DNA of 64,000 nucleotides from Naegleria gruberi (GCA_000004985.1 GG738905.1), one strand, 5' to 3'; shown: positions 5,240 through 44,772, counted from the first letter of the stretch. Translations and numbers: made by a program. Notes: a model not told the origin generated them from the sequence alone.

Positions 5240-7631
5240 AGCGTAAGTTTGGATTCACTTTGTTGACATTAAGATGTTAATTTTCGAAAATTCAGATGGT
5301 GAAATTGTTGAGTGCTACTCTTTAGAACCATTCATTGAGGGAGAATATCAAAAATATTTTAGTAATAGTGGAGAAGTGCCATGTATTGCGGCAGCCATCC
5401 AGTCTCCAGAAGTAATGGCATTATTCCAGACCTCCCAAACGTTCTCCCATTGGACATATGAAATAACCAAACAAAATTTAATAGTTACAGATATTCAGGG
5501 TGTGAAATATAGAATGACAGATCCAGCAATTTCCTCAGTAGGTCAATTATATGGAGAAACAGACACTGGTGAGGAAGGATTTAAAGACTTTTTTGAAGCT
5601 CACTATTGTAATGAACTTTGTTTAAAACTTGGATTGAAACATCCAAACGGTGATTTGTACATGGAACATCCATCTCTTCCAAAAACAATTTCAAACACAA
5701 TTGACCATGTAGACTTCTGTTCAGGATACTGTTGTGGAAACTATATTGAATACAAGATTGGTGAGAAAACACCAGATGGCACGCTTTTTTGCAACAAATG
5801 TAACCAGCGTAATAGTATAACTGAAAAGAAAGTTTGTAAAAAGAAAGGATGTTCCCTTAAATTTGAAATTGAAAGATGGTATTGGGTATCAACTGGAAAA
5901 CATCCACCAACCAAATGTCATCTACACAGAGGAACTATAGCATCTGAATTAAGGGATTGGAAGAAAAACAAAACCCTACCAAATGGAGCTCTCTTCACTC
6001 AAGAAGAAATGCAAAATCAATTAGATAAGGATCCAGATTTGAAAAAGCAATTTGAGAAGAGTATCATCCAAGAAAAGAAACCAGATTTATTTAATACTGT
6101 TGTTATTTCAAATCTCCCTGCTAGAACAAATTCCATGGATATCTTTAATATGCTTCCCCCTTTCTTCACTAATAGAAATCAGAAAGTGAAAGTCACTGAA
6201 CTTGAAGTGCCTTCAACCTTCAGCATTGAGTTTGAGAATGAACCAATTGCGTTAGAGGCATATCAAATTCTTGGATCATACATCCATAGAAGAAGATTAA
6301 TTGTTTGTAGACCTCTACAACACAAACATGAATCAGTGAAACTGGATAAAAGCTCCATCAATATTCAGTTGTCAAAGTATCCAAATGTTAAATGCAGTGA
6401 TATTTTACAATATTTCAAGGATTCGAATTACAAAATTCAAGACAAGTACTATGAGGAAAACAAGTTTGCAAATTTCACATTCTCTGATCCCTCAATAGCA
6501 CCAACCTTGGTCTCAAAAGGTTTATCTATTGATGGCACACTTGTTAAAGTTGTTTATAAGAAGGAGAAGCCAATTACTAAACAAGATGTACCACTAAAGA
6601 ATTTTAAGGAAAAGAAAATAGAAATTGATGAAAACGTTGACAAGACATCTGTACACATCAAATGGAGACCTAAAAATCCATCCGAATCTGTTCAGTTGCA
6701 AGAGATTGATCTTTTAAAACTTTTGAACCAATCTGACATTTTTAAGAAGAAATTCAATTCTGCTAAATCATTTATGCAAATTACTTTCAAATCAGAACAA
6801 TCTGCAGCATTATTGATTAAAAATGGTTTAAAGTTGCCAAACTTCAAGTTTACAATCAATTTCAAGAAGATACAAGAAAATGAAAGGAGCAATGATTGTA
6901 ATGAAAAACGAGTACAAAGTGAGGCCAAATCCAAAAAAGAAAAGCAATATCCAAAGGTTGTGGCAAACTCGCTTACTCCAACATCTGATTCAACTACCAA
7001 AAATCTTAAAAGCAATATTTCAACATCTAACAATCAATCACCCAAGCAACAAAATATTTCTAAAATGCAAAATTTGATGTTTGTTTTTGATATTAACACA
7101 CTTTTGAAAATTGGTAATTTACGTAATTTACTAGGACAATTTCTAGAAAACCACATCCAGTTTTGTGTTCCAGATATTAAATTGGACGAAATGAACGAAG
7201 ACACGTTTGCGGTTCAAAATTTAGTAGATGAATTCAAAGAAATCAATGTACAAGTTCCTGATGAATCAAATAATCTCACTTTAAGAACTCTTAAAGTAAC
7301 CAAAAAGGTGTCTGACAATTATCCAAATAGGAATGTTATGCTTGTGACAGATGATAAAGAATTGAAAGCTAACGCAGATAAATTCAGATTGAATGTTATC
7401 AATAGCTCAGCAATGAATCAATTAATTAGACAGTCAAGCGTAAATAATTCAGTACCAAAGCCAATACCATCAATTTCCAATCCATCACAAAAATCTACAA
7501 CTATTCCAACAACTAATACTGTTGAAACAATTATCATAGAACCATCTAATCAAAGAACAACCAACACACCTGTACCTGTTCCTGTTTTGCAAAGTATGAC
7601 CAAACTGATTAGTCATGGAAAGAGAAAATGA
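5240..7631 (+). CDS. alpha-kinase-family protein (C-lobe only visible) fused to an RRM-like segment and a C-terminal PIN-like domain; 5' exons missing in the gap
   Basis: First ~120 aa (LEPFIEGEYQKYFSNSGE...QTFSHWTYE...LIVTDIQGV..MTDPAI..GETDTGEEGFKDFFEAHYCNELCLKLGL) match the conserved C-terminal half of the alpha-kinase catalytic domain (MHCK/eEF2K family). The visible sequence starts mid-domain. agc|gtaagtttggattcactttgttgacattaag|ATG directly after the gap looks like a 31-nt intron (5243-5273), so upstream exon(s) lie in or beyond the gap. Residues ~265-340 (VVISNLPAR..LIVCRP) are RRM-like. The C-terminus FVFDINTLLK...VMLVTDDKEL is PIN-like. Confidence 0.55.
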
Positions 7632-7772: not shown

Positions 7773-10700
7773 CTAATGGAGAGAAATGATAGCTTGTTTT
7801 TCCACATGTTGAGCACTTGAAGACATTCTCAAATTATCTAAACTCATTCTCAATGCAGAATCTCCTCCTCTAAAAACCTCCAAAGTTCCCTCCCTTAAAT
7901 CATCTTCCTTATTTGGTTCGTGAATGTATGTTTTCATTTGACCTTTTCCTTTCACTTCGACATATCGTTCTTGGAATTCGTGTTTATCTTTGAGTCGTTG
8001 ATAGCATGTTTCGGTTACTTGAATGAATCCTGCAGGGCATGTACTTTCCATTCTTGAAGCAGTCTTTGATAATGTTATTTAAATTGTAAAGTGTGAAAAA
8101 TAAACTTACATTCACAGCATCAGACCAGACATCGTAGGCATATTTCAATACTCCACAAACTCCTGCAACTATTGGTCCAGAGTTAATGCCAACTCTTATT
8201 CCAATATTCAATCCATGATCCTCACAAAACAATTGAACTACTTCTGACAACTTGACAGCAAATGTGAAAGTTCTTTCCACATGATGAGCTTCATTCATAC
8301 CATCAGGTTTCAATCCAGCAGTACAGAAATACTTGGATCCAATTGTCTTTATCTTTTCCAAATTGAAATTGATGGTCAAGTCATCAAATTCATGAATAAT
8401 TTCATTCAAAGTTTGAACCAAATCAAAAGCAGATAAATTCAAATCCAATAATCCAACAATATCACTAAACAAAATGGTTACATCATCGAACTTGTCAGCA
8501 ATCAGAGTTTCTCCTGCAATCAGACGTTGAGCTACACTCTCTGGCATGATATTCATCAAGAGAGATTCGCTTTTTTTCTTTTCCTCAGCTAGTTCCTTAA
8601 CTTGTACTTTGTGTTCTGAAATATCACGCATGAAACATGAAATGATGTTTCGTCCTTCTAGTGCCGAAACTGAAATTCTCAATTCAACTGGGAATGATGA
8701 AGAATTCTTTCTTAAACCATTTAGTTCAAGAGTTTCAGAATAGCTTGTGGCAGAAACTCCCATTTTGGAAATGACTGGTTCTAGATTGGCAGCTGATTCC
8801 TTGTCAAATAATTTGTGGAGTGGAAATCCAATAATTTGATCTCCTCTGAATCCAAATAACTTTTCAGAAGCATTGTTGAAAATGTCAATTGTGCCACTTG
8901 ATGAGCAAATGACAGCACTCGTTAAGGCAGCTTCTAGAATGGCTCTTTCTTTTGTCGTTTTGAATTTGTTTTTCGATCTGGACTTTCCATTAGATAAGAG
9001 ATGGAAGAAGATATAGTTTCGAATATCGTCATTGGTATCCAATATTTCCCATGGAATGTAATTGAACAATTTTCTGAGAACATAATTTTCATTCTCAATG
9101 GTAGAGGTATACGTGTAGGTAATCCATGTCAGAAATAGCAATAATGGACAACCTAGGACAGCTGACAGTATTGTCATCAATGGTTGTTCTTGGAAAAAGT
9201 TGTAATAACAGAGTTTGTTTAAGGTTTCCAAATTGGTGAGTAGTACTATGGAATGATCAAAGAGAAATTCTGCCAATTCATTGATTTGTTTCATTTCTAG
9301 AGAGATAGTTTCGTTTGAGATTAGTAATTGATTGAAATTCAAAATGCTAGTTCTGAACTGCCCTATTTGGGTATCCAAAGATTGACAATCAAAATGAGAA
9401 CAATTAGTTGGCAATGTCAATAATAAATTGTCGATATTCGGATTGAATCCACTCAAACTAAAGTAATCATCAATTTGAGAACCATATCTCAACATATTCC
9501 AGTTTCTGTCAAATAAACTCATATCTGCCAATAATCTGTCATGAAATTTAACTCTCTTCTCATAATCTGCAATTGAAGCTACTTGAAGAAGATCATATCT
9601 TAAACTCTGAGATATATGCATTGATTGTGCTGTAGATTCCAACTTGTAAAGTCCATGTTCCAATATTTTCAATTTTCTGAAAATATCAGCAACGATCAAA
9701 GACATGGTTGCTGTGGCCACAATGAAGGACAAACAAACAACAATTACCAAAAAACTATTGGATGAGATACTATCCTTTGTGGAGTCTACATTCGTACCAT
9801 CCTTATCAATCAATCTCTCCATTCCAATAATGACCTTCTTGGATTCGTCTTTTGGAATTTTCTTAAACAAGTTTAGGATTTGTTTTCTCTGGTGAAGGAA
9901 TTTAAAACTACAAAAACCATTGAAAATCAAATATAGAAAGAAAATTAATCCAATAAATGATGATAAGGCAATGTAAGCATATGAATAGTTCCTTAATTCG
10001 CCTTGTTGGAATTGAAGAGTTTTTTGGAAGAAATCTAACATTCCATCTGAGAATGCTACTCGATTCATTTCAATGAAATTCAATAATTCTTGACTGATCT
10101 TCAAGTTGGATGTGTTTGTGGAAATAATTGTTTCAGATAGAACTCGTTTCGTCTTTTTCACAAACCATGAAGTTGAGGAATTTTTGTAAACTTGATTATC
10201 AAGAAGGAGAGTCTTGTCTTGTTTAGTATACAATAAGGAAACCAATTCATTGAATGAGAAGGAATCGAATAGAGTTTCGAACGAGTCAATCTTTGCAAGG
10301 TCGTTTTCCAGAACGTTCTGAAATGATTTTCTATACTCTAAAGATGAGCTATAATTCAAAGTTGACATTGCTCCAATATTTCCATTCACATTCGAAACTC
10401 CACAAAGTGTAGAAGTCGGAATTGAACTCAACATGGCAGATTTCAACAAAATATCGAATACACTATCATTCTGTGTAAATGAAAGTCCAACAATTAACAA
10501 AATTGCAATCAACACAATCGAAACCAAACCAGAGCTCACAATAAAATAAAACGTCGTTCTATTCTCATCCTTCTTATGAAGTGCCGAGCTGAAAACTTCT
10601 TGTTGCTTATCAGCTTGATCCATCAACTCTTCTGGTTGTTGTTCACTTACAGAGATGGAATCAAAGGCCTCATCATTGACATTCTCACTGAACATGTCGA

Positions 10701-12705
10701 CTCTCATGCCGTTGTTGTTATTGCTGCTACTACTTGTGTAGCTCTTTGTTATGATGAGTTCTCCGTGTGTTTTATCTGATCTTTCATTATCTGAGTTGTT
10801 GTTATTGGATGAAGAATGTTGTGAGGATGGTTTGAATTTGAATTCTTCCTGATATTGAGCGAACATTTTCTGAATGGCATGATCTTCCTCATTGTCTATA
10901 AGGAGATTGTGGAAAGCTAGGTCGCATTCATTGGATAATCTTTGAATTTGTTGAACAATAGTGTCAACAGCAACAGAGGCCAATAAATTCTTCCAAAATT
11001 GGACAATTAGTAATCTAAGCATTTTGATTCTACGCTTCGTTCCCTCCATAATGATATCAGAGGCTCCCGAAGATGAAGTTCTCCCTTCAGATAAATTCTT
11101 TTCCAACTCTTTTGTTCGAATATAGAGAGAATATTGAATGAAAATGTTGGCTCTCTTTTTCTCTGCCTTCTTAATCACTATTAAGGCAAGAAAGAAGTTT
11201 GGTATTTCCTTGTAGAACATGGAAATGAGAATTAAACTCTGAGCATCATGGACTTCTGATTTGTGAACGATTCTAATGGCATCATTTGCTAATTTCTTAT
11301 CCTCATCCGATCCTTTCAATGAAAATTTAATAAAAGTTGACAAGTAAGGCAACTCTCTCTGTGTTAACAGGACATCAGATCCACAATTTACAATTGCCTT
11401 AGCGAGATGCGACCCCCTCCTCTTCACAGACTTGGAATAGAATTCCAATATCAGAAATCCAATCACGAAAAAGATGATTCCCAAAACAAGAGGTGAAAAA
11501 GTCAATCCCAATCCAAATTCCCACATGTCATCCACGTTGATGAGAGTACTCACGAGTGAGGCAATTCCTACTCCAACTCGAGCAAATCCAATTCCACCAT
11601 AAACTGCATTGGCTTTCCTCCTCAAGAATGGTAAATCGACAAACATCAAGACAATAAATCCAATAGAAAGAACAATATAATAGACAGGTCTCAGGAAATT
11701 GACTATATGAGGAGTCACTCCTGCCACAATCAAGTACAATTGATTCGTTCCAATCAGATAGCTCATCACGAATGGATTCTCCAAAACAAATTTGGCCTTA
11801 CTCGCCACCATCGTATCACAAAATATCATGACCGCGCTCATAGTGATCAGAATTTGAATGATACAGAACAGTAAACTGATACTAGCCAATATACCATTCA
11901 TCGTGCCCCAGCATTCCACATTTCTGAAATTCCTCAATGCAAATGAAGGTGGAGCTCCCTGAACAATAGAAACCTTACTAGTAAAATCACAATCAAAGAA
12001 ACCTTGCATGAGACCATAGGTTATTGGCAGAGAGAGGAAGGTCATTAGGAAGAAGACAAATCTACCTCCAGTTCTGATCTTTTTCCAATAAGAGCTACCC
12101 AGAATGATGGATCGGTAGGTAATGTAAATAATCAGAAAGCAAATTGACTGCATCACAAAGACAATCACTGCCAATGCAATAAATCCTTCATAGGGCAAGT
12201 ATTGAAATCCCAATGTTCTTGGTATGAGTAATATGTTATAAATGTATCTGCCATATTCACCCCAATTATAATCGATGGCCACTCCTAGTGAAAGCGTCTG
12301 ATAGGCAATCAGCATGTGTATCGAGAGACACATGAGTGGATGCAATGGTTTTTCCAATTTGAGTGATTGAACAAACATGAATAGTTTCCTAGTGATGGCT
12401 CCTTGATTGTCTGTTTGTGAAGGTTGTGAATTCACACCAGACAGTTCATCAGAAATTACATTAAAGTAACCACCTCCTCCTGCTGTTGTTTTTGTTATTG
12501 CTGCTGCTTGATTCCCTGAAGCATTATTAAGACTACTAGTACTTCCATTGATGGGAAGGATTGAGTTGGAGCTGGGAGCTTCGGAGAGTCTGTTAGTCGA
12601 TCGTCTGGAGAGAAAATTCGACCTCGTCTTGAGATTCCTTCCACTATTACTAGTATGAAGTGTATTGTTATTGTTATTATTTGAATTTGAATTTGATTTA
12701 TCCAT
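7773..12705 (-). CDS. polytopic membrane class III nucleotidyl (adenylyl/guanylyl) cyclase with an internal PAS-like domain; 2 exons
   Basis: Exon 1 is 12705..~8110 and exon 2 is ~8063..7773. A 46-nt intron (gtaagttt...atcaaag) splits the cyclase motif ..YDVWSDAVN|TASRMES.. and the phases agree. The cyclase homology domain shows FSDIVG.., IKTIGSKYF, GIRVGINSGPIVAGVCG, YDVWSDAVNTASRMES and KGKGQMKTY. About 8 TM helices lie at the N-terminus with further hydrophobic segments mid-protein. PAS-like segment ERAILEAALTSAVICSSSGTIDIFNNASEKLFGF. Real ATG at 12705. Confidence 0.75.
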
Positions 12706-13739
12706 ATTGATGAAATCTGGATTATGTTGAATAGGAATTGTATTCTTCCTTAATGTTCTAATAACAAAATATATGAACAGTTCGTTTTAACTAATTAGCT
12801 AATTGATATACTACTATTCTGTGTCAAAATATTTCCTTAGTCGTTAAAATTTCAACAATTTATGCCGCCTACTAATAATTTCACCACTTTTTTGCAATTA
12901 TTTGCAATAATTAAAGGTTCTATTTTGAATAAATTGATGTATAATATTGATGCAAATGATGATAAAGGAAAGATGTAGTGAGCCAAATTTTACTCTTGAT
13001 GATAATAATTCTTTGCTTTTTGTTTTAATATTGAGCGAAGAATAAGCTAGCTTACAGGAGCTAGTTTGCACAGCTCAAAGATGCAACAACAGCTCCAACC
13101 ACAACAACACACCACCACCAAAACAGTAGAAGCCACTATATTTCATTTGGCTTAAATTCATGTTTAGAAGTCGGTGTGATACGTTTATGGAAACTCCATC
13201 ACCTTCAAGAGATTTGTTTTCCAAATGGCCTTATTTACAGCTCCTCAGATTTTCGCCTCAATTTGAAGTTCGGCCTTAGAGTGGCGCGTTTACCAATTTT
13301 GAGTTCATCATATGTGCAACAGCAAAGAGTGAAAGCTTGGCATGAGAATGCTGTTTGAACCTATCAGAGAAAAGATGTGCAATTTGAAACCCAACATCTG
13401 GTAATGTGAGGTTGTGAATTATTAATGTTGTTGTTGTTTTTTTAGTATCTCTTGATCAGTTGAGTTGTGGTAAAATATCATGATTGAAGTTTCGTGTGGT
13501 TAAAAGTGGAGTATTCTGTTATGGGCCATGTCTTGATTGGGATTGAAAATCCTTAATTCCACCTTTGAATAAGATCAGGTTTGATCAATTCAACCTGAAA
13601 TGGCTTGATAAACCATAAAGTGATTTTTGCAATTCATTAGAACCCATGAGATATTGCCTTATCAATAAAAGACAAAATCAAACAGTTGTTATTATTATTG
13701 TTGCTGTTTATTAACATAAATGATTAACATAGAGGCGTG

Positions 13740-14246
13740 TTAGATTGAATCAGAATCAATAGTATTATCGACATCATTGGATTCTTCATTCACTTGCTCA
13801 ACAAATTGAGACATGAGTAATTTCATACAACGACCCTTATCTTCCAATGAAAGTTTCTTGAATTGTTTCAAGATTTGCTTGACTGAATCTTGTGTACTTT
13901 CTGATGATTCCTTCTTCTCCTTCTTTTCCTTTTTTACTATAGTTGGCAGTGGAGATCCACTTAGTAAACAGTGAAGTGCCTTTAGCTTTTCCTTCTTGTG
14001 ATAATCTTGAACCTTCTCTTTGAAATCACTGTATTCTCCAATCTCCTTTCCATTCAAGCTGAATTTAATTCTATCAGCAACTTGGCCACTTGTTTTATAA
14101 TCTGTAACTTCATTGCAAAATTCTGTAATACTGTCCAGTGAATTATTTGCATAGTGAATATGACCATCGGAGGACAATACTGCCTTGTGATCAACTTTTG
14201 TGTAGGTGAGGCTTAACTGAATAACAGTAGGAGTGGATGATGACAT
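13740..14246 (-). CDS. hypothetical protein (168 aa), K/E-rich
   Basis: Real ATG. Single ORF with no recognised domain. Confidence 0.35.
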   Translation of the reverse strand: MSSSTPTVIQLSLTYTKVDHKAVLSSDGHIHYANNSLDSITEFCNEVTDYKTSGQVADRIKFSLNGKEIGEYSDFKEKVQDYHKKEKLKALHCLLSGSPLPTIVKKEKKEKKESSESTQDSVKQILKQFKKLSLEDKGRCMKLLMSQFVEQVNEESNDVDNTIDSDSI

Positions 14247-14397
14247 TTTTTTTGTGATTGATTGGATGAGTTGTGTAGTATCTTTTTTTATTCTAAAATT
14301 GTCTAAAATTAGAATTGATAAGGAATTCCCTTAATATTCAATCAAAACAAGAAATTGTGTGTCGAAATACAATAATTTACACTTTTGTAGAGATGAT

Positions 14398-15547
14398 TTA
14401 TTTCTCCCAACCATATCTTTGAGCAACTCTGAAGAAAGCTTCCTTAGCTTCGTGTTCAGAGTATGGGGAGGTGTTTGAGAAATCCAATTGAGCTTCACCT
14501 GCAACCATTTCAGATCTGATTTGAACAAAGATTGATTCAAGAGAACAGACTGAACTCCAACCAGAGCTAGTCAACAATTCCATACAAATGGAACCACCAA
14601 TAGTGACGTGACCAGTACGGAAGGCAAATCTTGGCTTGAGAACTCTGATGAATGGTGGCTTGAACGGGAATTCAAGAGGGAAGGTCAAATCCAATGTAAT
14701 GTAACTGGTTGTGTTAATCAATTTGAAATAAAGAGATACTTACTCGATACCATTCTTCTTCTTGTATTCTTGCAAATCCTTGGCAATTTTACCATCTTCC
14801 TTGATATCAAAATTGAAGAATCTGATTTCCCAATGGAAAAGATCATCATTGACAGGATTGGCACTAATACCAAACTTTTCAGTGTTAGCTTGTTTAATCT
14901 TCATATATTCCTTCATAATGCAATTAACACAACCTTCTGAGGCACCAGTTGGTTTTTTGAATTTCTTCTTCATTTCTTCAAATTCTGGATCATATCCTCC
15001 ACTTGATTGATGAGTAACTGGTTGGATTGGATCATCATCCATATCATCACCAATATCAATTTCAACTTCCTCTGGTTCTTCGTCACCACCATCTTCATCA
15101 CCCAACAAGGCAGATTCAACTTCCTTGTAGAGAGCAGTAGCCTTTTGTAAAATATCAGTGAGAGATCTCTTTCCACTTCCACAATAATCACTCAATGATT
15201 TGACAAATTTAACATCTCCAACTTCTTCCAAAAGATAGTATTGACTGGTAACTTTCTATCATGATCAAGAATTAAATTATAATAATTGATGTATTTGATT
15301 GATAATTGATGTTGATCAATTTAATAACAAATAGTACATAAACTCTCCATCATCATTCAAATACTAAATTACTTACGAATGAATCTCCATTCTTTGTTAC
15401 GGAAAAGTATGGATTATCTTCAGCATCTACTTCGCTATCTACAATGACAATAATCTTCTCATCAGTACTATTACTCTTCAAAGTCCAAGAGAAGGAATTT
15501 TCCTTTGGGTTGTTGATGAACTTTTCTGCTTCAGCCTTTAAACTCAT
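14398..15547 (-). CDS. UBE2Q-family ubiquitin-conjugating enzyme E2 (3 exons) with long N-terminal extension
   Basis: Exons are ~15547..15377, ~15255..14744 and ~14704..14398. Donor ttc|gtaagt and acceptor gatag|aaagtt (phase 0). Second intron is 39 nt, gtaagtatc...aaccag, phase 2. The C-terminus ICMELLTSSGWSSVCSLESIFVQI..YGWEK closely matches the UBE2Q UBC core with the catalytic Cys. An acidic D/E insert sits in exon 2. Confidence 0.65.
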
Positions 15548-40539: not shown

Positions 40540-40795
40540 AAAGTCTTCATCTTCTGAATATGATTCAAAGAAAGTTGCCTAATTTTTGAGGGATGAGAAT
40601 TGATGGATTGAAAGCCTCCATCTCATTGAGAATGAGCATTGACAATAATAGTGGAATCATTCAATGTCGATTTGAAACTATTTCAAATAAATTTCGAGTT
40701 GGAATCTGCTACTTTTTTTAAGTGTTTGGTGATAAACGTTGGGTCAATTTGTTACTTTCCATTTTGAGGAGTCATGCAGATTTCTTGAATGAAAG
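40540..40795 (+). repeat. terminal repeat A1 of the DIRS-like element
   Basis: About 90% identical to 44976-45236. Both start aaagtcttcatcttctgaatatgattcaaagaaagttgcctaattt and end gatttcttgaatgaaag. Confidence 0.85.
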
Positions 40796-40796
40796 T

Positions 40797-40915
40797 TGAA
40801 GTGAGTACCCCACTCACTAAGGTTTATTGTAAACTACACACACCAATAAATATGAAAAATTTTTGTCTGAAAAAATTTCAACACAGCAAGATGTTAAAAG
40901 ACAAGATTTACGCTC
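40797..40915 (+). repeat. repeat B1
   Basis: ttgaagtgagtaccccactcactaaggtttattgtaaactacacacaccaataaatatgaaaaatttttgtctgaaaaaatttcaacacagcaagatgttaaaagacaagatttacgctc is identical to 44800-44921. Confidence 0.9.
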
Positions 40916-42034
40916 TTATTAAAGAACACTCCAGTGATGTTATGGCTAGTATGCCTCCAAACACCATCAAGATGGTATTGGATCTACTTGGCGAAAACCC
41001 TGAAGACAAAGAAAGATGGCTAGAAATTGTTGAAGACGCAGGTGGTGCGTTATTCAACAACTTCTCAACAAAAGCAGAGGCCCAGGAATACTTTACCAAA
41101 GGTATTAAGAAGTTAGCAAAGAGTGGTAAAGTTGCTTCCACTAGAAGTAAGACTACCTCTTTGCAAGAGGCAAGCACTCCAAGTAACATGAATAAGACTT
41201 CTTCTTCATCTCAAATGGCTACCCCAAAGGTTTCTAGCGTTAGTCAGGTTAGAGAGTTCGTCCAAAAGAGAAGGATTGAAGAAACAGACGACAAGGAGTG
41301 GAAGAGAAGAGGTGTTATTCTTGACCCAGCTGATTTCCTTGAAAAGCCAGCTACTTGGAATCTCCCAAGTAGACAACAATGGGAAGAGATGAACCGCCAA
41401 ATCAACATTTTAGTGGTCGGTAAACAGGTTGAAGAAAAGGTTAAGGAAACGTTTCCGCCATTGAGTACCAATAACCAAGCATTGAAAGCAGAGTACGACA
41501 CCTTGAAAGAGGTCGCAGGAAGCGTCTACGGTGCTGCATTGTTGAACAAGGATGAGTCAGTTGCAGACAAGTTGGAGGGTGCCATTGAATATATCAAGGA
41601 GAAAGCGGTACACCTCAAGCTCGTTTCCTTCGACAAGCATCTTGCGGAGAAGGTTCGTATCATTCGTTCAGATAAGACCTGGAGAGAACAGGCTGACCTT
41701 ATTAAGGTCGCCTCCAAGTTGATGAAGGTAGAAAGTGAAGTGATTAAGAATGGAAACTTGCCAGTCATCAATAATATGACTAAAGCTGTTGAAAAGGCAA
41801 GAGATACCTATCCTGTAGCTTCCCACTGTTTCAAATGCGGAGAAGTTGGACACTTGGCAAAGAATTGCAATAAATCCACTTCCAAATACGTCTCGGTAAG
41901 TACTATTTTTCGATCCTCCAGATGCGGCAGAGATACGGGAGAGGAAACAAGCTGTTCACTCCATTTCGAATGCTTGGAAGGAGTGGAAGAGAAGAGGAGC
42001 GAAACCTTCGATAATAAGGCTCCTGAAAGAGGGT

Positions 42035-43852
42035 GTGAAAGTGCTTCCTTCAACAGGGTTCAAAAGATCAGTGGAGACAGTAAATTCAGCCAAGTTCTCA
42101 ATAAGGGAACTACAGTGGTTGGAAAGGGAGATAAATTTGCTAAAGAAGATTGGTGCATTAGAAGCTTGTCAGAATGCGGAAGTAGTGGCCAAGTTCAGAT
42201 TGGTACCAAAGGGAGAACAGTACAGATTGATTGTAGACTTGAGACCCTTAAACAAATATTGCCTCATCCCCAAATTCAAGTACAACACATTGAAGAGATT
42301 CTTAGAGTTTATTCCAGAATCTGGAACCATGTTCCTATCATCATTCGATTTGAAGTCTGGGTACCACCAGCTAAAAGTCCACAAGGACTCAAGAAAATTT
42401 TTTGCTATCAACTATTTTGGACAATTATTACAGTTTACTGTGTTGCCCTTTGGCTGGAATGGATCACCATAGAACTTCACTTTGGTAATGAATCAAGCGG
42501 TAATTTTGATGGAATCACCACTCATGCGTCTTTCCAATTATTTGGACGATGTGCAAATAGTGAATGTAGTGGAAGAAACAATAGCCGTACAGAATGTAGA
42601 AATATGCAGGGAAGATGCAAACCAGCTTGGTTTAGTGTTAGAGAGAAGAAAGAGTGTAATGAAACCAATGACAGAATTAGTAGTGTTGGGGTCATGTGTG
42701 AATATTATAACGAAGACACTATCAATGACAGAGGCTACGATAGTGAAGATTACGAATATGATAAAATCAGTACTCACGCGGATTCATTTAGGCAAAACAG
42801 TGTCGGTAAGGAAGATGAGTTCGATAAGCGGGACAGTGATTGCTTATTTGGAATGTTTTATCCCAGCAAGGGTGATGCTTGCTCCCATATTCGCCTTAAT
42901 AGCAAAAACAGTAGTGAAGTACGGATGGAAAGCTTCGGTATTCGTAAGGGATGTCAGGGTCATTCACAACCTTCAATGGATTATTGCAAATATAAGGATG
43001 TGGAATGGAAAACACTTCCAGAGGCCATCATTGGTCTATTACTTCTGGACAGATGCATCAGATTGGGGTTGGGGAGCATATTTCGAGGAGAAGGACTTGA
43101 AGATAGGTGGTCAATGGTCGGAACAAGAAAGAAAACTTCATATCCATATAAGAGAAATGTTAGCGGTGTTAAGAGCTTTGATGGAATGGAAGCATTTGTT
43201 CGAAGAGAGAAAGATCATTATTTATGTGGACAATTGGATTATCTTACACAACATTTTAAAGGGATGGGCAAAAAGCCCACTTATGAGAAGGTTAATTATG
43301 AGCTTCTGGAGAATTATATTCAGCCACAATATAACTCTATTGTCTGTGGAATGGTTACCGTCGGAAGAGAATTATATGGCAGACGGGATCAGCAGGGGGA
43401 TAATGAACGATCCCACGGATTGGGAGATGACTATTCCAGCATTTCAAAGGATTCAGAAGGAACTTCTAGTGGAAATAGGATTCGACAGATTCGCTTCCCA
43501 CGTAAGCTTCAAAGTCAAGCCTTACATGGTAAGAGAAAGAAATTTCAGAGGAGAGAAAGCAGACGCCTTCTCTACATTATGGACAGAAGAGGTTGTAAAT
43601 TTGTGTTGCGTCCCATTCAACTTAATAGGAAGAGTATTGAAACATTGCGAAGAATCAAAAGCTATAATGGTGTTGATTCATCCAGTATGGAAGAGAAGGT
43701 TTTGGTGGCCAATTCTAGAAAAGTATCGTATAAGGAGTGTATCGATGAATGGAAAGGACTTCTTTACAAAGTCCAATACAGGTCACGTAGAACCTTGCAA
43801 GAAATCTTGGCTATTAGAGGCAAGTCTGATAGATTGTCGAACTCGGAACTAA
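42035..43852 (+). pseudogene. RT/RNase H ORF of the DIRS-like element, interrupted by one in-frame TAG (~42473)
   Basis: Both sub-ORFs are in the same frame. The stop falls between the LPFGWNGSP motif and the YLDD motif. Otherwise the frame is intact. Confidence 0.7.
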
Positions 43853-44772
43853 TTAGAATTGCCAAGGAGGTCATTAGCTCTCACAGATACAAAGAGAGCA
43901 CTGACAAGAACTACAGAAGATATTGGGTGCGCTTTATTAGATTTAACATTGAAAGAAAGGCTTGTTTTCCTCCTTCAGAAGATAATCTTATTGCTTTCCT
44001 GACGAACATGTTCCTTAAAACACCGTCAGGAAGCAACTGCAGTGCAGCATATGCTGCTATCATGGCATTTGCCAAGAAATTTAGTTTAGATCAGGGAATG
44101 CGAGGAGATAATATTCGAGAAGTTTTAAATGGAATGACTAATCTTTCAAGAGTGGCTAGTGAGAAGGAAAGAAATGCTTGGCAACTAGAATTTATTAGAA
44201 AGTGGGTGAGCATAGGTAGGAGAAGCGTGTCTGACAGAGAATTTGTATTATACACATCTATGATGATCATAGGTCTACGAACTATGTTGAGAGGAAGTGA
44301 ACTTGGTGAACTAAAGACCGAAGATGTTCAATTTCTTCGCTTGGAGAATGGTAAAATGGCAGTCAAATTGAAATGTAGAAGAGTTAAATCTAGTCAGGGT
44401 AGAATGGGTAGAATTATGTGTATAGAGAGTACAGGAAATGATTTGTGCCCAGTATCTTGGTTGAATAGGTGGATGGTGTATAGAGATCAAGGTGATTACT
44501 TATTTGGTAATAGTAAGGCTTTGACTACAATCGACATTTCGTGGATACTGAGATTTGTGGCGTCAGTTATTGGAGTAGATGGATGTTTCTCCTCTCATTC
44601 TTTAAGAATTGGAGGTGCTAATGAAGCAGCTCAAGCAGGTTTTTCTCTCGCTGCTATTCAAGCTTTAGGCAACTGGTCTTCAAATGCGGTTGACAAATAT
44701 TTCAGATCTGAGTTTTTCTATAGTAGAAACGTATCAAAAGAATTGGGTTTCTAGTAGGGGCTCATTGTTTTC

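What the first reader, a model, noticed from the sequence alone, without database searches (positions are those of the whole stretch)
7773..12705. Unusual cyclase architecture: ~12 hydrophobic segments plus a PAS-like module and a single C-terminal cyclase homology domain split by a 46-nt intron
The catalytic domain is class III (FSDIVG.. / GIRVGINSGPIVAGVCG / YDVWSDAVN-TASRMES / KGKGQMKTY). A single CHD implies homodimeric activity. The N-terminal 500 aa form a multi-helix membrane domain, and further TM segments flank a PAS-like region. This differs from the two-CHD 12-TM topology of ACA/GCA-type cyclases. It looks like a sensor cyclase whose substrate specificity (ATP versus GTP) cannot be read off confidently here.
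Basis: partly seen in the sequence, partly recalled or inferred. Interest (0 to 1): 0.6.

Follow-up and report, generated by a model that had tools for sequence, protein, structure and literature searches.

The report
Heterolobosean 12-TM PAS cyclase, half-dead site
This is a real, single, spliced gene for a large membrane-bound sensor adenylate cyclase of a family confined to Naegleria-like amoebae; its catalytic domain has lost one of the two metal-binding aspartates, so it probably works only when paired with a complementary sister cyclase rather than with itself.

Summary
The gene model is confirmed. On the minus strand, exon 1 is 12705-8110, a 46-nt GT..AG intron is 8109-8064, and exon 2 is 8063-7773. 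The protein is 1628 aa.

Pfam gives Guanylate_cyc (E=2e-47) read across the splice junction and PAS_9 (E=1e-15). Twelve TM helices are supported.

The organism is not a dictyostelid. Orthologues are in Naegleria gruberi and N. fowleri, with close paralogues in N. lovaniensis and Willaertia magna. The protein belongs to a family found essentially only in Heterolobosea: an 8-TM module, a TmcB-type TPR, 4 TM with two helical ectodomains, a cytosolic PAS, a cyclase-transducer element, and one class IIIa CHD.

Substrate residues are Lys1453/Asp1525, the ATP type.

The main new point concerns the metal site. The second metal-binding Asp is Ser1457, and the GFT motif after Asp1415 is GLL. Asn1532 and Arg1536 are intact. 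This is the pattern of a mammalian C2 domain, and it is conserved in the orthologues.

N. gruberi and W. magna also carry paralogues with the opposite defect (both Asp kept, Asn/Arg lost). This is inferred, not shown.

Novelty and interest are moderate.

The parts
8110..12705 (-). Exon 1 (codons 1-1532). It ends with the catalytic Asn1532 codon (8112-8110).
   Evidence: Single ORF with no stops. Sequence at the start and at the junction read. Translation.
8064..8109 (-). 46-nt intron, GTAAGT...ATCAAAG, phase 0, inside the cyclase domain.
   Evidence: Removing it restores the conserved DAVN|TASRMES motif and the C-terminal third of the CHD (Pfam match continuous across the junction). Read-through would give 41 unrelated residues and then a stop.
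7773..8063 (-). Exon 2 (codons 1533-1628 plus stop at 7775-7773). It contains Arg1536 (8054-8052) and the KGKG motif.
12376..12705 (-). N-terminal Ser/Asn-rich low-complexity region (residues 1-110), predicted cytosolic.
   Evidence: Sequence. pLDDT below 50 at the start of the N-terminal model.
11431..12348 (-). 8-TM membrane module (residues about 120-425) with conserved Cys-containing outer loops and a conserved RRxxNxxYGG motif.
   Evidence: Hydropathy. AF2 helices. Invariant columns in A5. A profile of this module finds 115 representative proteins, essentially all heterolobosean.
10831..11418 (-). Cytosolic helical-repeat region, TmcB-type TPR (residues about 430-625).
   Evidence: The window protein's own Pfam hit to PF25474 TPR_TmcB is below cut-off (13.4 bits, E=0.075). 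Homologous positions in family members pass it at 31-59 bits. The AF2 model shows stacked helix pairs.
9106..10563 (-). 4-TM module (TM9-TM12, residues about 715-1200) carrying two predicted extracellular helical domains of about 170 aa each. ECD1 is residues 740-909 (window 9979-10488). ECD2 is residues 1006-1176 (window 9178-9690) and has a conserved Cys pair.
8614..8946 (-). Cytosolic PAS domain (residues 1254-1364).
8521..8604 (-). Coiled-coil linker / cyclase-transducer element (residues 1368-1395, ...EEKKKSESLLMNIMPESVAQRL).
   Evidence: Weak Pfam hit to the HNOBA C-terminal end. The motif KSE-LL-NI-P is conserved in class IIIa homologues (consensus).
7923..8499 (-). Class III cyclase homology domain (residues 1403-1579), interrupted by the intron.
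   Evidence: Pfam PF00211 E=2e-47. PDB phmmer hits to AC9, AC5 and AC8 C2 domains and to mycobacterial Cya/Rv1625c, E=1e-43 to 1e-60. 45-52% identity to cyanobacterial class IIIa cyclases.
8335..8337 (-). Ser1457 codon, at the position of the second metal-binding Asp (canonical GDxYM; here GSKYF).
   Evidence: Aligned to Asp of AC9 C1 'LGDCYY'. Aligned to Asp in 118 of 141 CHDs tabulated and in all bacterial homologues of A1. Also Ser in the N. gruberi orthologue and two N. fowleri genes.
8461..8463 (-). Asp1415 codon (first metal-binding Asp, retained). It is followed by GLL instead of GFT and by a 2-residue deletion.
8347..8349 (-). Lys1453 codon, the substrate-specifying Lys (ATP type). Its partner Asp1525 is at 8131-8133.

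Best explanation
The locus encodes one 1628-aa polytopic receptor-type adenylate cyclase. It belongs to a family found essentially only in Heterolobosea (Naegleria, Willaertia, Pharyngomonas).

Domain order, as shown:
- cytosolic low-complexity N-terminus;
- 8-TM module;
- cytosolic TmcB-type TPR;
- TM9, ectodomain 1, TM10, short cytosolic loop, TM11, ectodomain 2, TM12;
- cytosolic PAS;
- coiled-coil cyclase-transducer element;
- one class IIIa catalytic domain.

Proposed mechanism (inferred): the two helical-bundle ectodomains, and/or the PAS, sense a signal. That signal is passed through TM12, the PAS and the transducer helix to a dimeric catalytic core.

What the catalytic domain keeps and lacks: it keeps everything a mammalian C2 domain contributes (Lys1453 and Asp1525 for adenine, Asn1532 and Arg1536 for the transition state). 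It has lost part of what a C1 domain contributes (second metal Asp replaced by Ser1457, GFT replaced by GLL).

Consequence (inferred): a homodimer should have two crippled sites. I therefore infer that it acts as the C2-like subunit of an obligate heterodimer. The partner would be a paralogue that supplies the Asp pair. The best candidate is the orthologue of N. gruberi XP_002675302 / W. magna KAL9658602, which has the mirror-image defect (both Asp kept, Asn and Arg lost). Such a pair would have one active ATP site and one dead pseudo-site, as in mammalian tmACs.
For: Gene model and domains.

Topology. Lys/Arg-rich loops fall on the predicted cytosolic side, and the Cys pairs fall in predicted outer loops.

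Family: a profile of the N-terminal module finds 115 representatives. Those that carry a name are N. gruberi, N. fowleri, N. lovaniensis, W. magna and Pharyngomonas. Of the six full-length members scanned, five show TPR_TmcB + PAS_9 + Guanylate_cyc; the sixth, N. fowleri P0251, shows only PAS_9 + Guanylate_cyc.

Catalytic residues:
- AC9 C1 and C2 alignments.
- A 141-CHD table in which 118 are canonical D-FT-K-D-D-N-R and the window protein is D-LL-K-S-D-N-R. The K-S-D-N-R part is also found in animal tmAC C2 domains.
- Ser at this position is conserved in N. gruberi P0001, the N. fowleri locus L002 and P0018/P0273.
- Glu occupies the position in the related P0002, P0140, P0250/1 and P0174.

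Complementary paralogues: W. magna P0141 has Asn->Ile and Arg->Lys. N. gruberi P0258 has Asn->Thr and Arg->Lys. Both keep both Asp.

Relatedness: by full-length BLAST, P0141's best hit outside its own orthologues is the Glu-type P0002, and P0141 ranks directly after the Ser/Glu group for the window protein. An NJ tree places the C1-like pair next to the C2-like clade.

Precedents:
- Rv1625c D300A is inactive alone but active when paired with R376A (PMC4821796, read).
- Obligate heterodimeric single-CHD rhodopsin cyclases exist in chytrids (PMC10622942).

Against: - No activity, interaction or expression data exist for any family member.
- The proposed partner is not in the window, and its presence in this organism is unverified.
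- Bootstrap support for an exclusive C1-like + C2-like clade is weak: 19%, or 54% if the Pharyngomonas sequence is included. Only the C2-like clade (81%) and the C1-like pair (100%) are well supported.
- Asp1415 is retained in all orthologues. A pure C2-type subunit would not need it, so residual or unusual metal chemistry in a homodimer cannot be excluded.
- Relatives with Glu at the second position may still bind metal.
- The ectodomain models rest on 6-sequence alignments. Mean pLDDT is 68, and ECD1 is below 50.
- No Pfam sensor-domain family matches the ectodomains.
Confidence: 0.55

Rival explanations
1. It is an ordinary homodimeric sensor adenylate cyclase. Asp1415 plus Ser1457 (or a water or a neighbouring residue) would be enough for metal binding, and two symmetric sites would work.
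For: There is a single CHD, like the homodimeric bacterial class IIIa enzymes to which it is 45-52% identical. Asp1415, Lys, Asp, Asn and Arg are all conserved. Most members of the same family are fully canonical and presumably homodimeric. The whole domain is clearly under purifying selection across species.
Against: The second metal Asp is present in 118 of 141 related CHDs and in every canonical family member with a complete domain. Its Ala mutant in Rv1625c is inactive (PMC4821796). The adjacent GFT phosphate/metal loop is also altered and shortened. The same K-S-D-N-R pattern is found in animal C2 domains, which do not supply the metal site.
Confidence: 0.2
2. It is a catalytically inert pseudo-cyclase. 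It would be a receptor or scaffold that keeps the CHD fold for nucleotide binding or for dimerising with, and regulating, other cyclases, without ever forming an active site.
For: Part of the metal and phosphate site is lost. Degeneration appears progressive across the clade: Asp, then Glu, then Ser, and FT, then FL/FA, then LL. An inactive NeoR cyclase domain in chytrids is a precedent.
Against: The four residues that would act in trans (Lys, Asp, Asn, Arg) are strictly kept in all Ser- and Glu-type members over the Naegleria-Willaertia divergence. That is unexpected if no site is ever completed. Paralogues with exactly the complementary loss exist.
Confidence: 0.2
3. It is a guanylate cyclase, or a cyclase of relaxed specificity.
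For: The Pfam family covers both activities.
Against: The positions that are Glu and Cys/Ser/Thr in guanylate cyclases are Lys1453 and Asp1525 here, as in AC C2 domains and Rv1625c-type enzymes. A guanylate-cyclase-type E/C signature appears in the comparison table only in unrelated proteins such as P0008.
Confidence: 0.03
4. The region holds two genes, a membrane protein and a separate PAS-cyclase, as annotated at the N. fowleri locus.
For: N. fowleri annotation splits all three related loci: FDP41_002182 plus its neighbour, FDP41_008683/008682, and FDP41_000411/000410.
Against: In the window, 1532 codons are open without interruption. In N. fowleri, homology runs straight through the annotated gene boundary, with a frame change inside a poly-T run. 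Single 1500-1800-aa products are called in W. magna, N. lovaniensis and Pharyngomonas transcripts.
Confidence: 0.02

Closest known systems
Uncharacterised heterolobosean cyclases in public databases: N. gruberi D2-series 'predicted protein' / 'adenylate/guanylate cyclase' entries (P0001; XP_002676156), N. fowleri FDP41_002182 plus neighbour and FDP41_008683/008682, N. lovaniensis C9374_012229, W. magna KAL9658648
   Same: They share the whole architecture (8 TM, TmcB-type TPR, 4 TM, PAS, CHD). They are 34-51% identical overall and about 65-75% identical in the PAS-CHD region. The orthologues have the same Ser at the second metal position.
   Different: The window comes from a different, unidentified species. 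Only a 3.6-kb metagenome contig is 96-97% identical at the DNA level. Intron positions in the CHD differ from those in N. fowleri. Several public models are split or fused, whereas this locus gives a clean model.
C2 catalytic domain of mammalian membrane adenylate cyclases (AC9, AC5, AC2)
   Same: These are the best PDB sequence matches, at E=1e-57 to 1e-60. They share Lys/Asp/Asn/Arg, have Ser or Ala at the second metal position, and have the cyclase-transducer helix in front.
   Different: The window protein's CHD is on its own polypeptide with no C1 domain. The first metal Asp is retained. The membrane part is 8+4 TM with large ectodomains rather than 2x6 TM. A PAS domain is inserted. No G-protein-regulated features were tested.
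Mycobacterial Rv1625c/Cya and cyanobacterial class IIIa cyclases (homodimeric, single CHD, often PAS/GAF-linked)
   Same: One CHD per chain. 45-52% CHD identity. The same transducer element. PAS-CHD tandems are common.
   Different: Those enzymes carry all six canonical residues. This one naturally carries the equivalent of the inactivating Rv1625c D300 substitution.
Heterodimeric single-CHD cyclases: soluble guanylate cyclase alpha/beta and chytrid RGC/NeoR
   Same: Separate polypeptides whose CHDs have complementary losses, so that only the heterodimer has a complete site (sGC from general knowledge).
   Different: Those are guanylate cyclases with haem-NOB or rhodopsin sensors. Here pairing is only predicted from residue patterns in paralogues.
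Dictyostelium cyclases ACA/GCA, ACG, ACB, sGC
   Same: Class III CHD. ACG is also a single-CHD receptor type (general knowledge).
   Different: No specific relationship was seen. No dictyostelid protein appears among the best hits of any search. The only link is the TmcB-type TPR Pfam family, which is named after a Dictyostelium protein.

Membership tests
Class III nucleotidyl cyclases (Pfam PF00211) | Cyclase homology domain detectable above the curated threshold | tested here: met
   161.6 bits against a cut-off of 21.9, profile positions 3-180 of 183.
Class III cyclases, catalytically canonical homodimer type | All six canonical residues present in one chain: two metal Asp, Lys, Asp, Asn, Arg | tested here: not met
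   The second metal Asp is Ser1457. The other five are present.
Adenylate (versus guanylate) cyclase specificity | Lys and Asp at the two base-recognition positions (Glu and Cys/Ser/Thr in GCs) | tested here: met
   Lys1453 and Asp1525. Actual substrate use was not assayed.
Class IIIa subclass | Cyclase-transducer element immediately N-terminal to the CHD, and closest similarity to tmAC, GC and Rv1625c-type domains | tested here: met
   The ...KKKSESLLMNIMPESVAQRL motif aligns with the consensus KSE-LLLNILPE-IA-RLK of homologues. There is a weak HNOBA C-terminal hit. The best PDB hits are AC9/5/8 and mycobacterial IIIa enzymes.
PAS domain superfamily | HMM match above threshold and the PAS fold | tested here: met
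Haem-binding FixL/DosP-type PAS | Proximal His on the F-alpha helix | tested here: not met
   In the phmmer alignment, the His of the FixL RSRHDSY segment aligns to Leu in the window protein. By eye, the N. gruberi and N. fowleri sequences also have Leu in the corresponding segment (sequences, not formally aligned to FixL).
LOV-type PAS | Flavin-adduct Cys in a GxNCRFLQ motif | tested here: not met
   No such motif is present in residues 1254-1364 (sequence). Contrast the bacterial hit P0031, which has GRNCRFLQ.
Mammalian/ACA/GCA-type 12-TM cyclases | Two CHDs (C1, C2) in one chain, each preceded by 6 TMs | tested here: not met
   One CHD only. The TM arrangement is 8+4 with large ectodomains.
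Heterolobosean 8TM-TPR-4TM-PAS-CHD cyclase family (unnamed) | Homology over the N-terminal 8-TM/TPR module plus the same downstream domain order | tested here: met
   N-terminal module hits at E=1e-110 to 1e-169. The profile search gives 41 proteins below 1e-30. The domain order is shared.
TmcB-type TPR (Pfam PF25474) | HMM match above the gathering score | tested here: inconclusive
   The window protein scores 13.4 bits (E=0.075) against a cut-off of 27. The aligned region of relatives scores 31-59 bits.
NIT / four-helix-bundle (4HB_MCP, PilJ) extracellular sensor domains | Sequence-profile match, or a confident fold match of the ectodomains | tested here: inconclusive
Obligate heterodimeric class III cyclase (C1-like + C2-like subunits) | A physical and functional partner with the complementary residue set | not testable with these tools
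   Complementary paralogues exist in N. gruberi and W. magna. Pairing, and the partner's presence in this organism, could not be tested.

The most novel reading that the evidence does not exclude
Heterolobosea may have independently evolved split 'C1/C2' adenylate cyclases. After duplication within one receptor-cyclase family, one lineage lost the metal site (this gene: Asp->Glu->Ser, GFT->GLL). A sister lineage lost the transition-state Asn and Arg. Two different 12-TM PAS receptors would then have to heterodimerise to make a single active site plus one regulatory pseudo-site. That would be a two-input coincidence detector, convergent with mammalian tmACs and sGC but built from separate receptor polypeptides.
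Probability: 0.4. Interest if true: 0.65.

Novelty: new variant of a known kind. Interest (0 to 1): 0.42.

Why it matters
Naegleria-type amoebae encode about a hundred cyclases whose inputs and wiring are unknown (PMC9928731).

This locus gives a clean full-length model for one conserved subfamily. Its public orthologues are mostly mis-split or mis-fused.

The work shows three further points:
- The 12-TM architecture is lineage-wide.
- Substrate specificity is assigned as the ATP type.
- The subfamily carries a conserved, C2-like half-site defect, with mirror-image paralogues elsewhere in the family.

If the predicted heterodimers are real, they would be an independent origin of the asymmetric one-active-site design of animal adenylate and guanylate cyclases. 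They would also be a tractable system for asking why that design evolves. In addition, the number of functional cyclase species in these genomes would not simply equal the gene count.

If they are not real, this is simply another member of a known expanded gene family.

Tried and rejected
- **Dictyostelid origin and comparison with acgA/sgcA/gca.** Rejected. No dictyostelid hits appeared in any search.
- **Second CHD or partner cyclase nearby.** tblastn of the PAS-CHD, N-terminal and middle regions against the window finds only the gene itself.
- **Internal duplication of the two ectodomains.** BLASTP of ECD1 against ECD2 shows nothing (best E=2).
- **Haem or flavin cofactor for the PAS.** The nearest PDB relatives are haem-PAS domains, but the ligand His is absent and there is no LOV motif.
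- **Fetching the N. gruberi orthologous locus.** The protein is not on record in the contig index.
- **First profile search.** It failed because the profile exceeded 1200 positions, and was redone with a trimmed alignment.
- **Literature.** No paper in the held library describes this architecture or heterodimeric cyclases in Heterolobosea. A TmcB search returned only irrelevant acronyms. The N. gruberi genome paper is not held.
- **Synteny with N. fowleri.** None was seen. The neighbours differ.


Full report
**1. What is in the sequence**

On the minus strand a single ORF runs from the ATG at 12705 to 7984. Up to 8110 it encodes conserved cyclase sequence ending in ...KYAYDVWSDAVN. The next bases are GTAAGT.

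Forty-six nucleotides later (...ATCAAAG, 8064) the frame resumes as TASRMESTCPAGFIQV...VEVKGKGQMKTYIH and continues to a TAG at 7775-7773. The spliced product is 1628 aa.

Pfam's Guanylate_cyc model matches residues 1403-1579 as one stretch (profile 3-180 of 183, E=2e-47) straight across the junction. PAS_9 matches 1264-1364 at 58 bits against a gathering score of 27.

Unspliced read-through would replace the last third of the domain, including the catalytic Arg, with 41 unrelated residues and a stop. The intron is therefore supported by homology, although not by transcript data.

tblastn finds no other cyclase domain in the 64-kb window.

**2. Topology**

Hydropathy and the helices of two AlphaFold2 models (mapped) agree on twelve TM helices.
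- Eight lie between residues 123 and 424.
- Four more lie at 721-739, 910-928, 987-1005 and 1177-1195.

Lys/Arg-rich loops fall on one side, and the two loops with conserved Cys pairs fall on the other. This gives the following arrangement:
- cytosolic N-terminus;
- cytosolic helical-repeat region (430-625);
- two ectodomains of about 170 aa (740-909 and 1006-1176);
- a cytosolic PAS-linker-CHD tail.

The PAS, however, is not flanked by TM segments, because nothing hydrophobic follows it.

**3. Whose gene it is**

The best full-length hits are a Naegleria gruberi predicted protein (42% identity) and a N. lovaniensis hypothetical protein (34%).

The N-terminal module alone hits N. fowleri and N. 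lovaniensis 'transmembrane proteins'. It also hits a 3.6-kb ENA metagenome contig that is 96-97% identical at the DNA level to window 10384-14028.

Neighbouring ORFs are ordinary eukaryotic genes: an alpha-kinase, an M20 peptidase, HPS3, an ABC1 kinase and XRN.

The window is therefore from an unidentified heterolobosean related to Naegleria. It is not from a dictyostelid.

**4. One gene or two**

N. fowleri annotation splits the orthologous locus into a 495-aa membrane protein and a 1043-aa PAS-cyclase. In the DNA, however, homology to the window protein continues through the annotated boundary, with a frame change inside a poly-T run.

Two other N. fowleri loci of the family are split in the same way. 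The N. gruberi model is fused to downstream genes and skips part of the TM module.

In the window, 1532 codons are open. Single products of 1500-1800 aa are called in W. magna, N. lovaniensis and in Pharyngomonas transcripts. I conclude it is one gene.

In N. fowleri the same part of the CHD is interrupted by two introns at other positions: after ..AFD, and inside the Arg codon of ASRMES. Intron positions are therefore not conserved, although the coding sequence is.

**5. The family**

An exhaustive HMMER search with a profile of the N-terminal module found 115 representative proteins, 41 of them below E=1e-30. Every named one among the stronger hits is heterolobosean: N. gruberi, N. fowleri, N. 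lovaniensis, Willaertia magna and Pharyngomonas kirbyi. Only weak TPR-only hits lie outside this group, in Diphylleia and fish.

Five of the six full-length members tested show TPR_TmcB + PAS_9 + Guanylate_cyc in the same order. The sixth, N. fowleri P0251, shows only PAS_9 + Guanylate_cyc at E<=0.001.

The window protein's own TPR_TmcB hit is sub-threshold at 13.4 bits, but it aligns with that region of its relatives.

The architecture is therefore lineage-wide and old, and the gene is a member of the well-known cyclase expansion of these amoebae ('at least 81 cyclases', PMC9928731). I found no paper describing this particular architecture.

**6. The modules**

- *PAS.* It is closest to haem-binding FixL and DosP (E about 4e-7), but the proximal His aligns to Leu. 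There is also no LOV motif. The cofactor, if there is one, is unknown.
- *Linker.* The sequence ...EEKKKSESLLMNIMPESVAQRL is the cyclase-transducer element typical of class IIIa.

**7. The catalytic domain**

The CHD is class IIIa. It is 45-52% identical to cyanobacterial enzymes. Its best PDB sequence matches are the C2 domains of AC9, AC5 and AC8 and the mycobacterial Cya/Rv1625c enzymes.

The base-recognition residues are Lys1453 and Asp1525, the ATP type. The transition-state residues Asn1532 and Arg1536 are present, and so is the first metal Asp, Asp1415.

The second metal Asp (canonical GDxYM) is Ser1457 (GSKYF). The GFT that follows the first Asp is GLL, with a two-residue deletion.

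In a table of 141 related CHDs, 118 are canonical D-FT-K-D-D-N-R. The K-S-D-N-R pattern is otherwise seen in animal tmAC C2 domains.

The Ser is not a sequencing accident. It recurs in the N. gruberi orthologue (TIQSKYF), in two N. fowleri genes (TIGSKYF) and in a further N. fowleri paralogue (TIQSHYF).

The next relatives carry Glu there: N. lovaniensis P0002, N. fowleri P0250/1, W. magna P0140 and Pharyngomonas P0174. P0174 has also lost the first Asp.

In the well-studied homodimeric Rv1625c, the D300A mutant is inactive on its own but forms an active dimer with R376A (PMC4821796). That D300 is this second metal Asp is from my own knowledge; it is consistent with the Lys-x3-Asp spacing.

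A homodimer of the window protein should therefore have two incomplete sites.

**8. A candidate partner**

The same family contains the mirror image.
- W. magna P0141 keeps both Asp, the Lys and the Asp, but has Asn->Ile and Arg->Lys.
- Its N. gruberi orthologue P0258 (XP_002675302) has Asn->Thr and Arg->Lys.

By full-length BLAST, P0141's best hit outside its own orthologues is the Glu-type P0002. For the window protein, P0141 ranks immediately after the Ser/Glu group and ahead of all canonical members.

An NJ tree on 1509 columns places the C1-like pair next to the C2-like clade. Bootstrap support, however, is strong only for each group separately (100% and 81%). For their union it is 19%, or 54% with the Pharyngomonas sequence included.

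In a heterodimer, both defects would fall in the same pseudo-site and leave the other site complete. This is the design of mammalian tmACs, of sGC, and of the obligate heterodimeric rhodopsin cyclases of chytrids (PMC10622942).

This is my preferred mechanism. It is an inference from residue patterns. The partner's presence in this organism and any physical pairing are untested.

**9. Alternatives**

- A homodimer with unconventional metal binding remains possible, because Asp1415 is conserved.
- An inert pseudo-cyclase also remains possible.
- A guanylate cyclase and a two-gene model are both unlikely.

**10. Verdict**

The interpretation needs three corrections: the organism and comparison set, the readable ATP specificity, and above all the assumption of homodimeric activity.

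The gene is a new species' copy of a conserved but uncharacterised heterolobosean receptor-cyclase subfamily. I rate it a new variant of a known kind and of moderate interest. The complementary half-site degeneration is the point worth following up.

Noticed in passing
window 40789-44754 (+): A 1321-aa ORF carries a CCHC zinc knuckle and a C-terminal tyrosine-recombinase (Phage_integrase) domain. It sits in a local GC rise (0.39-0.43 against about 0.34). It looks like a DIRS/Ngaro-type tyrosine-recombinase retroelement.
   Followed up: partly
window 5274-7631 (+): The neighbouring convergent gene starts with only the C-terminal half of an Alpha_kinase domain (profile positions 81-185 of 185). 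Upstream exon(s) are therefore probably missing from this ORF. Its stop lies 141 bp from the cyclase stop.
   Followed up: no
L001 about 2455 versus window 11503-11588: The 96-97% identical metagenome contig (ENA ERZ929261) lacks 86 nt between short ATTG/GGATTG repeats, inside the conserved TM7 coding region. This shifts the frame and splits the called gene. It is not bounded by GT..AG, so it is an assembly artefact or a deletion allele rather than an intron.
   Followed up: partly
L002 (N. fowleri VFQX01000028.1) 10001-15399; also FDP41_008683/008682 and FDP41_000411/000410: Public N. fowleri annotation splits three genes of this family into two genes each. At L002 the break coincides with a frame change in a poly-T run near 11560-11580. 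The N. gruberi orthologue model (2426 aa) is fused to downstream hydrolase-like genes and skips about 100 aa of the TM module.
   Followed up: partly
L002 14860-15060: The N. fowleri orthologue has two short introns in the stretch where the window gene has one, and all three are at different codon positions. There are also further introns in the PAS region. This indicates rapid intron turnover in this gene.
   Followed up: no
W. magna proteins P0140 (KAL9658648, ABK040_006184) and P0141 (KAL9658602, ABK040_006139): The Glu-type (C2-like) and the C1-like family members of Willaertia magna lie on the same 520-kb contig, about 45 locus tags apart. They are linked but not adjacent.
   Followed up: no
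protein P0003 (diatom Conticribra weissflogii): A soluble protein has eight or so tandem PAS domains that keep a FixL-like His, followed by a canonical CHD. It was the best non-heterolobosean full-length hit.
   Followed up: no
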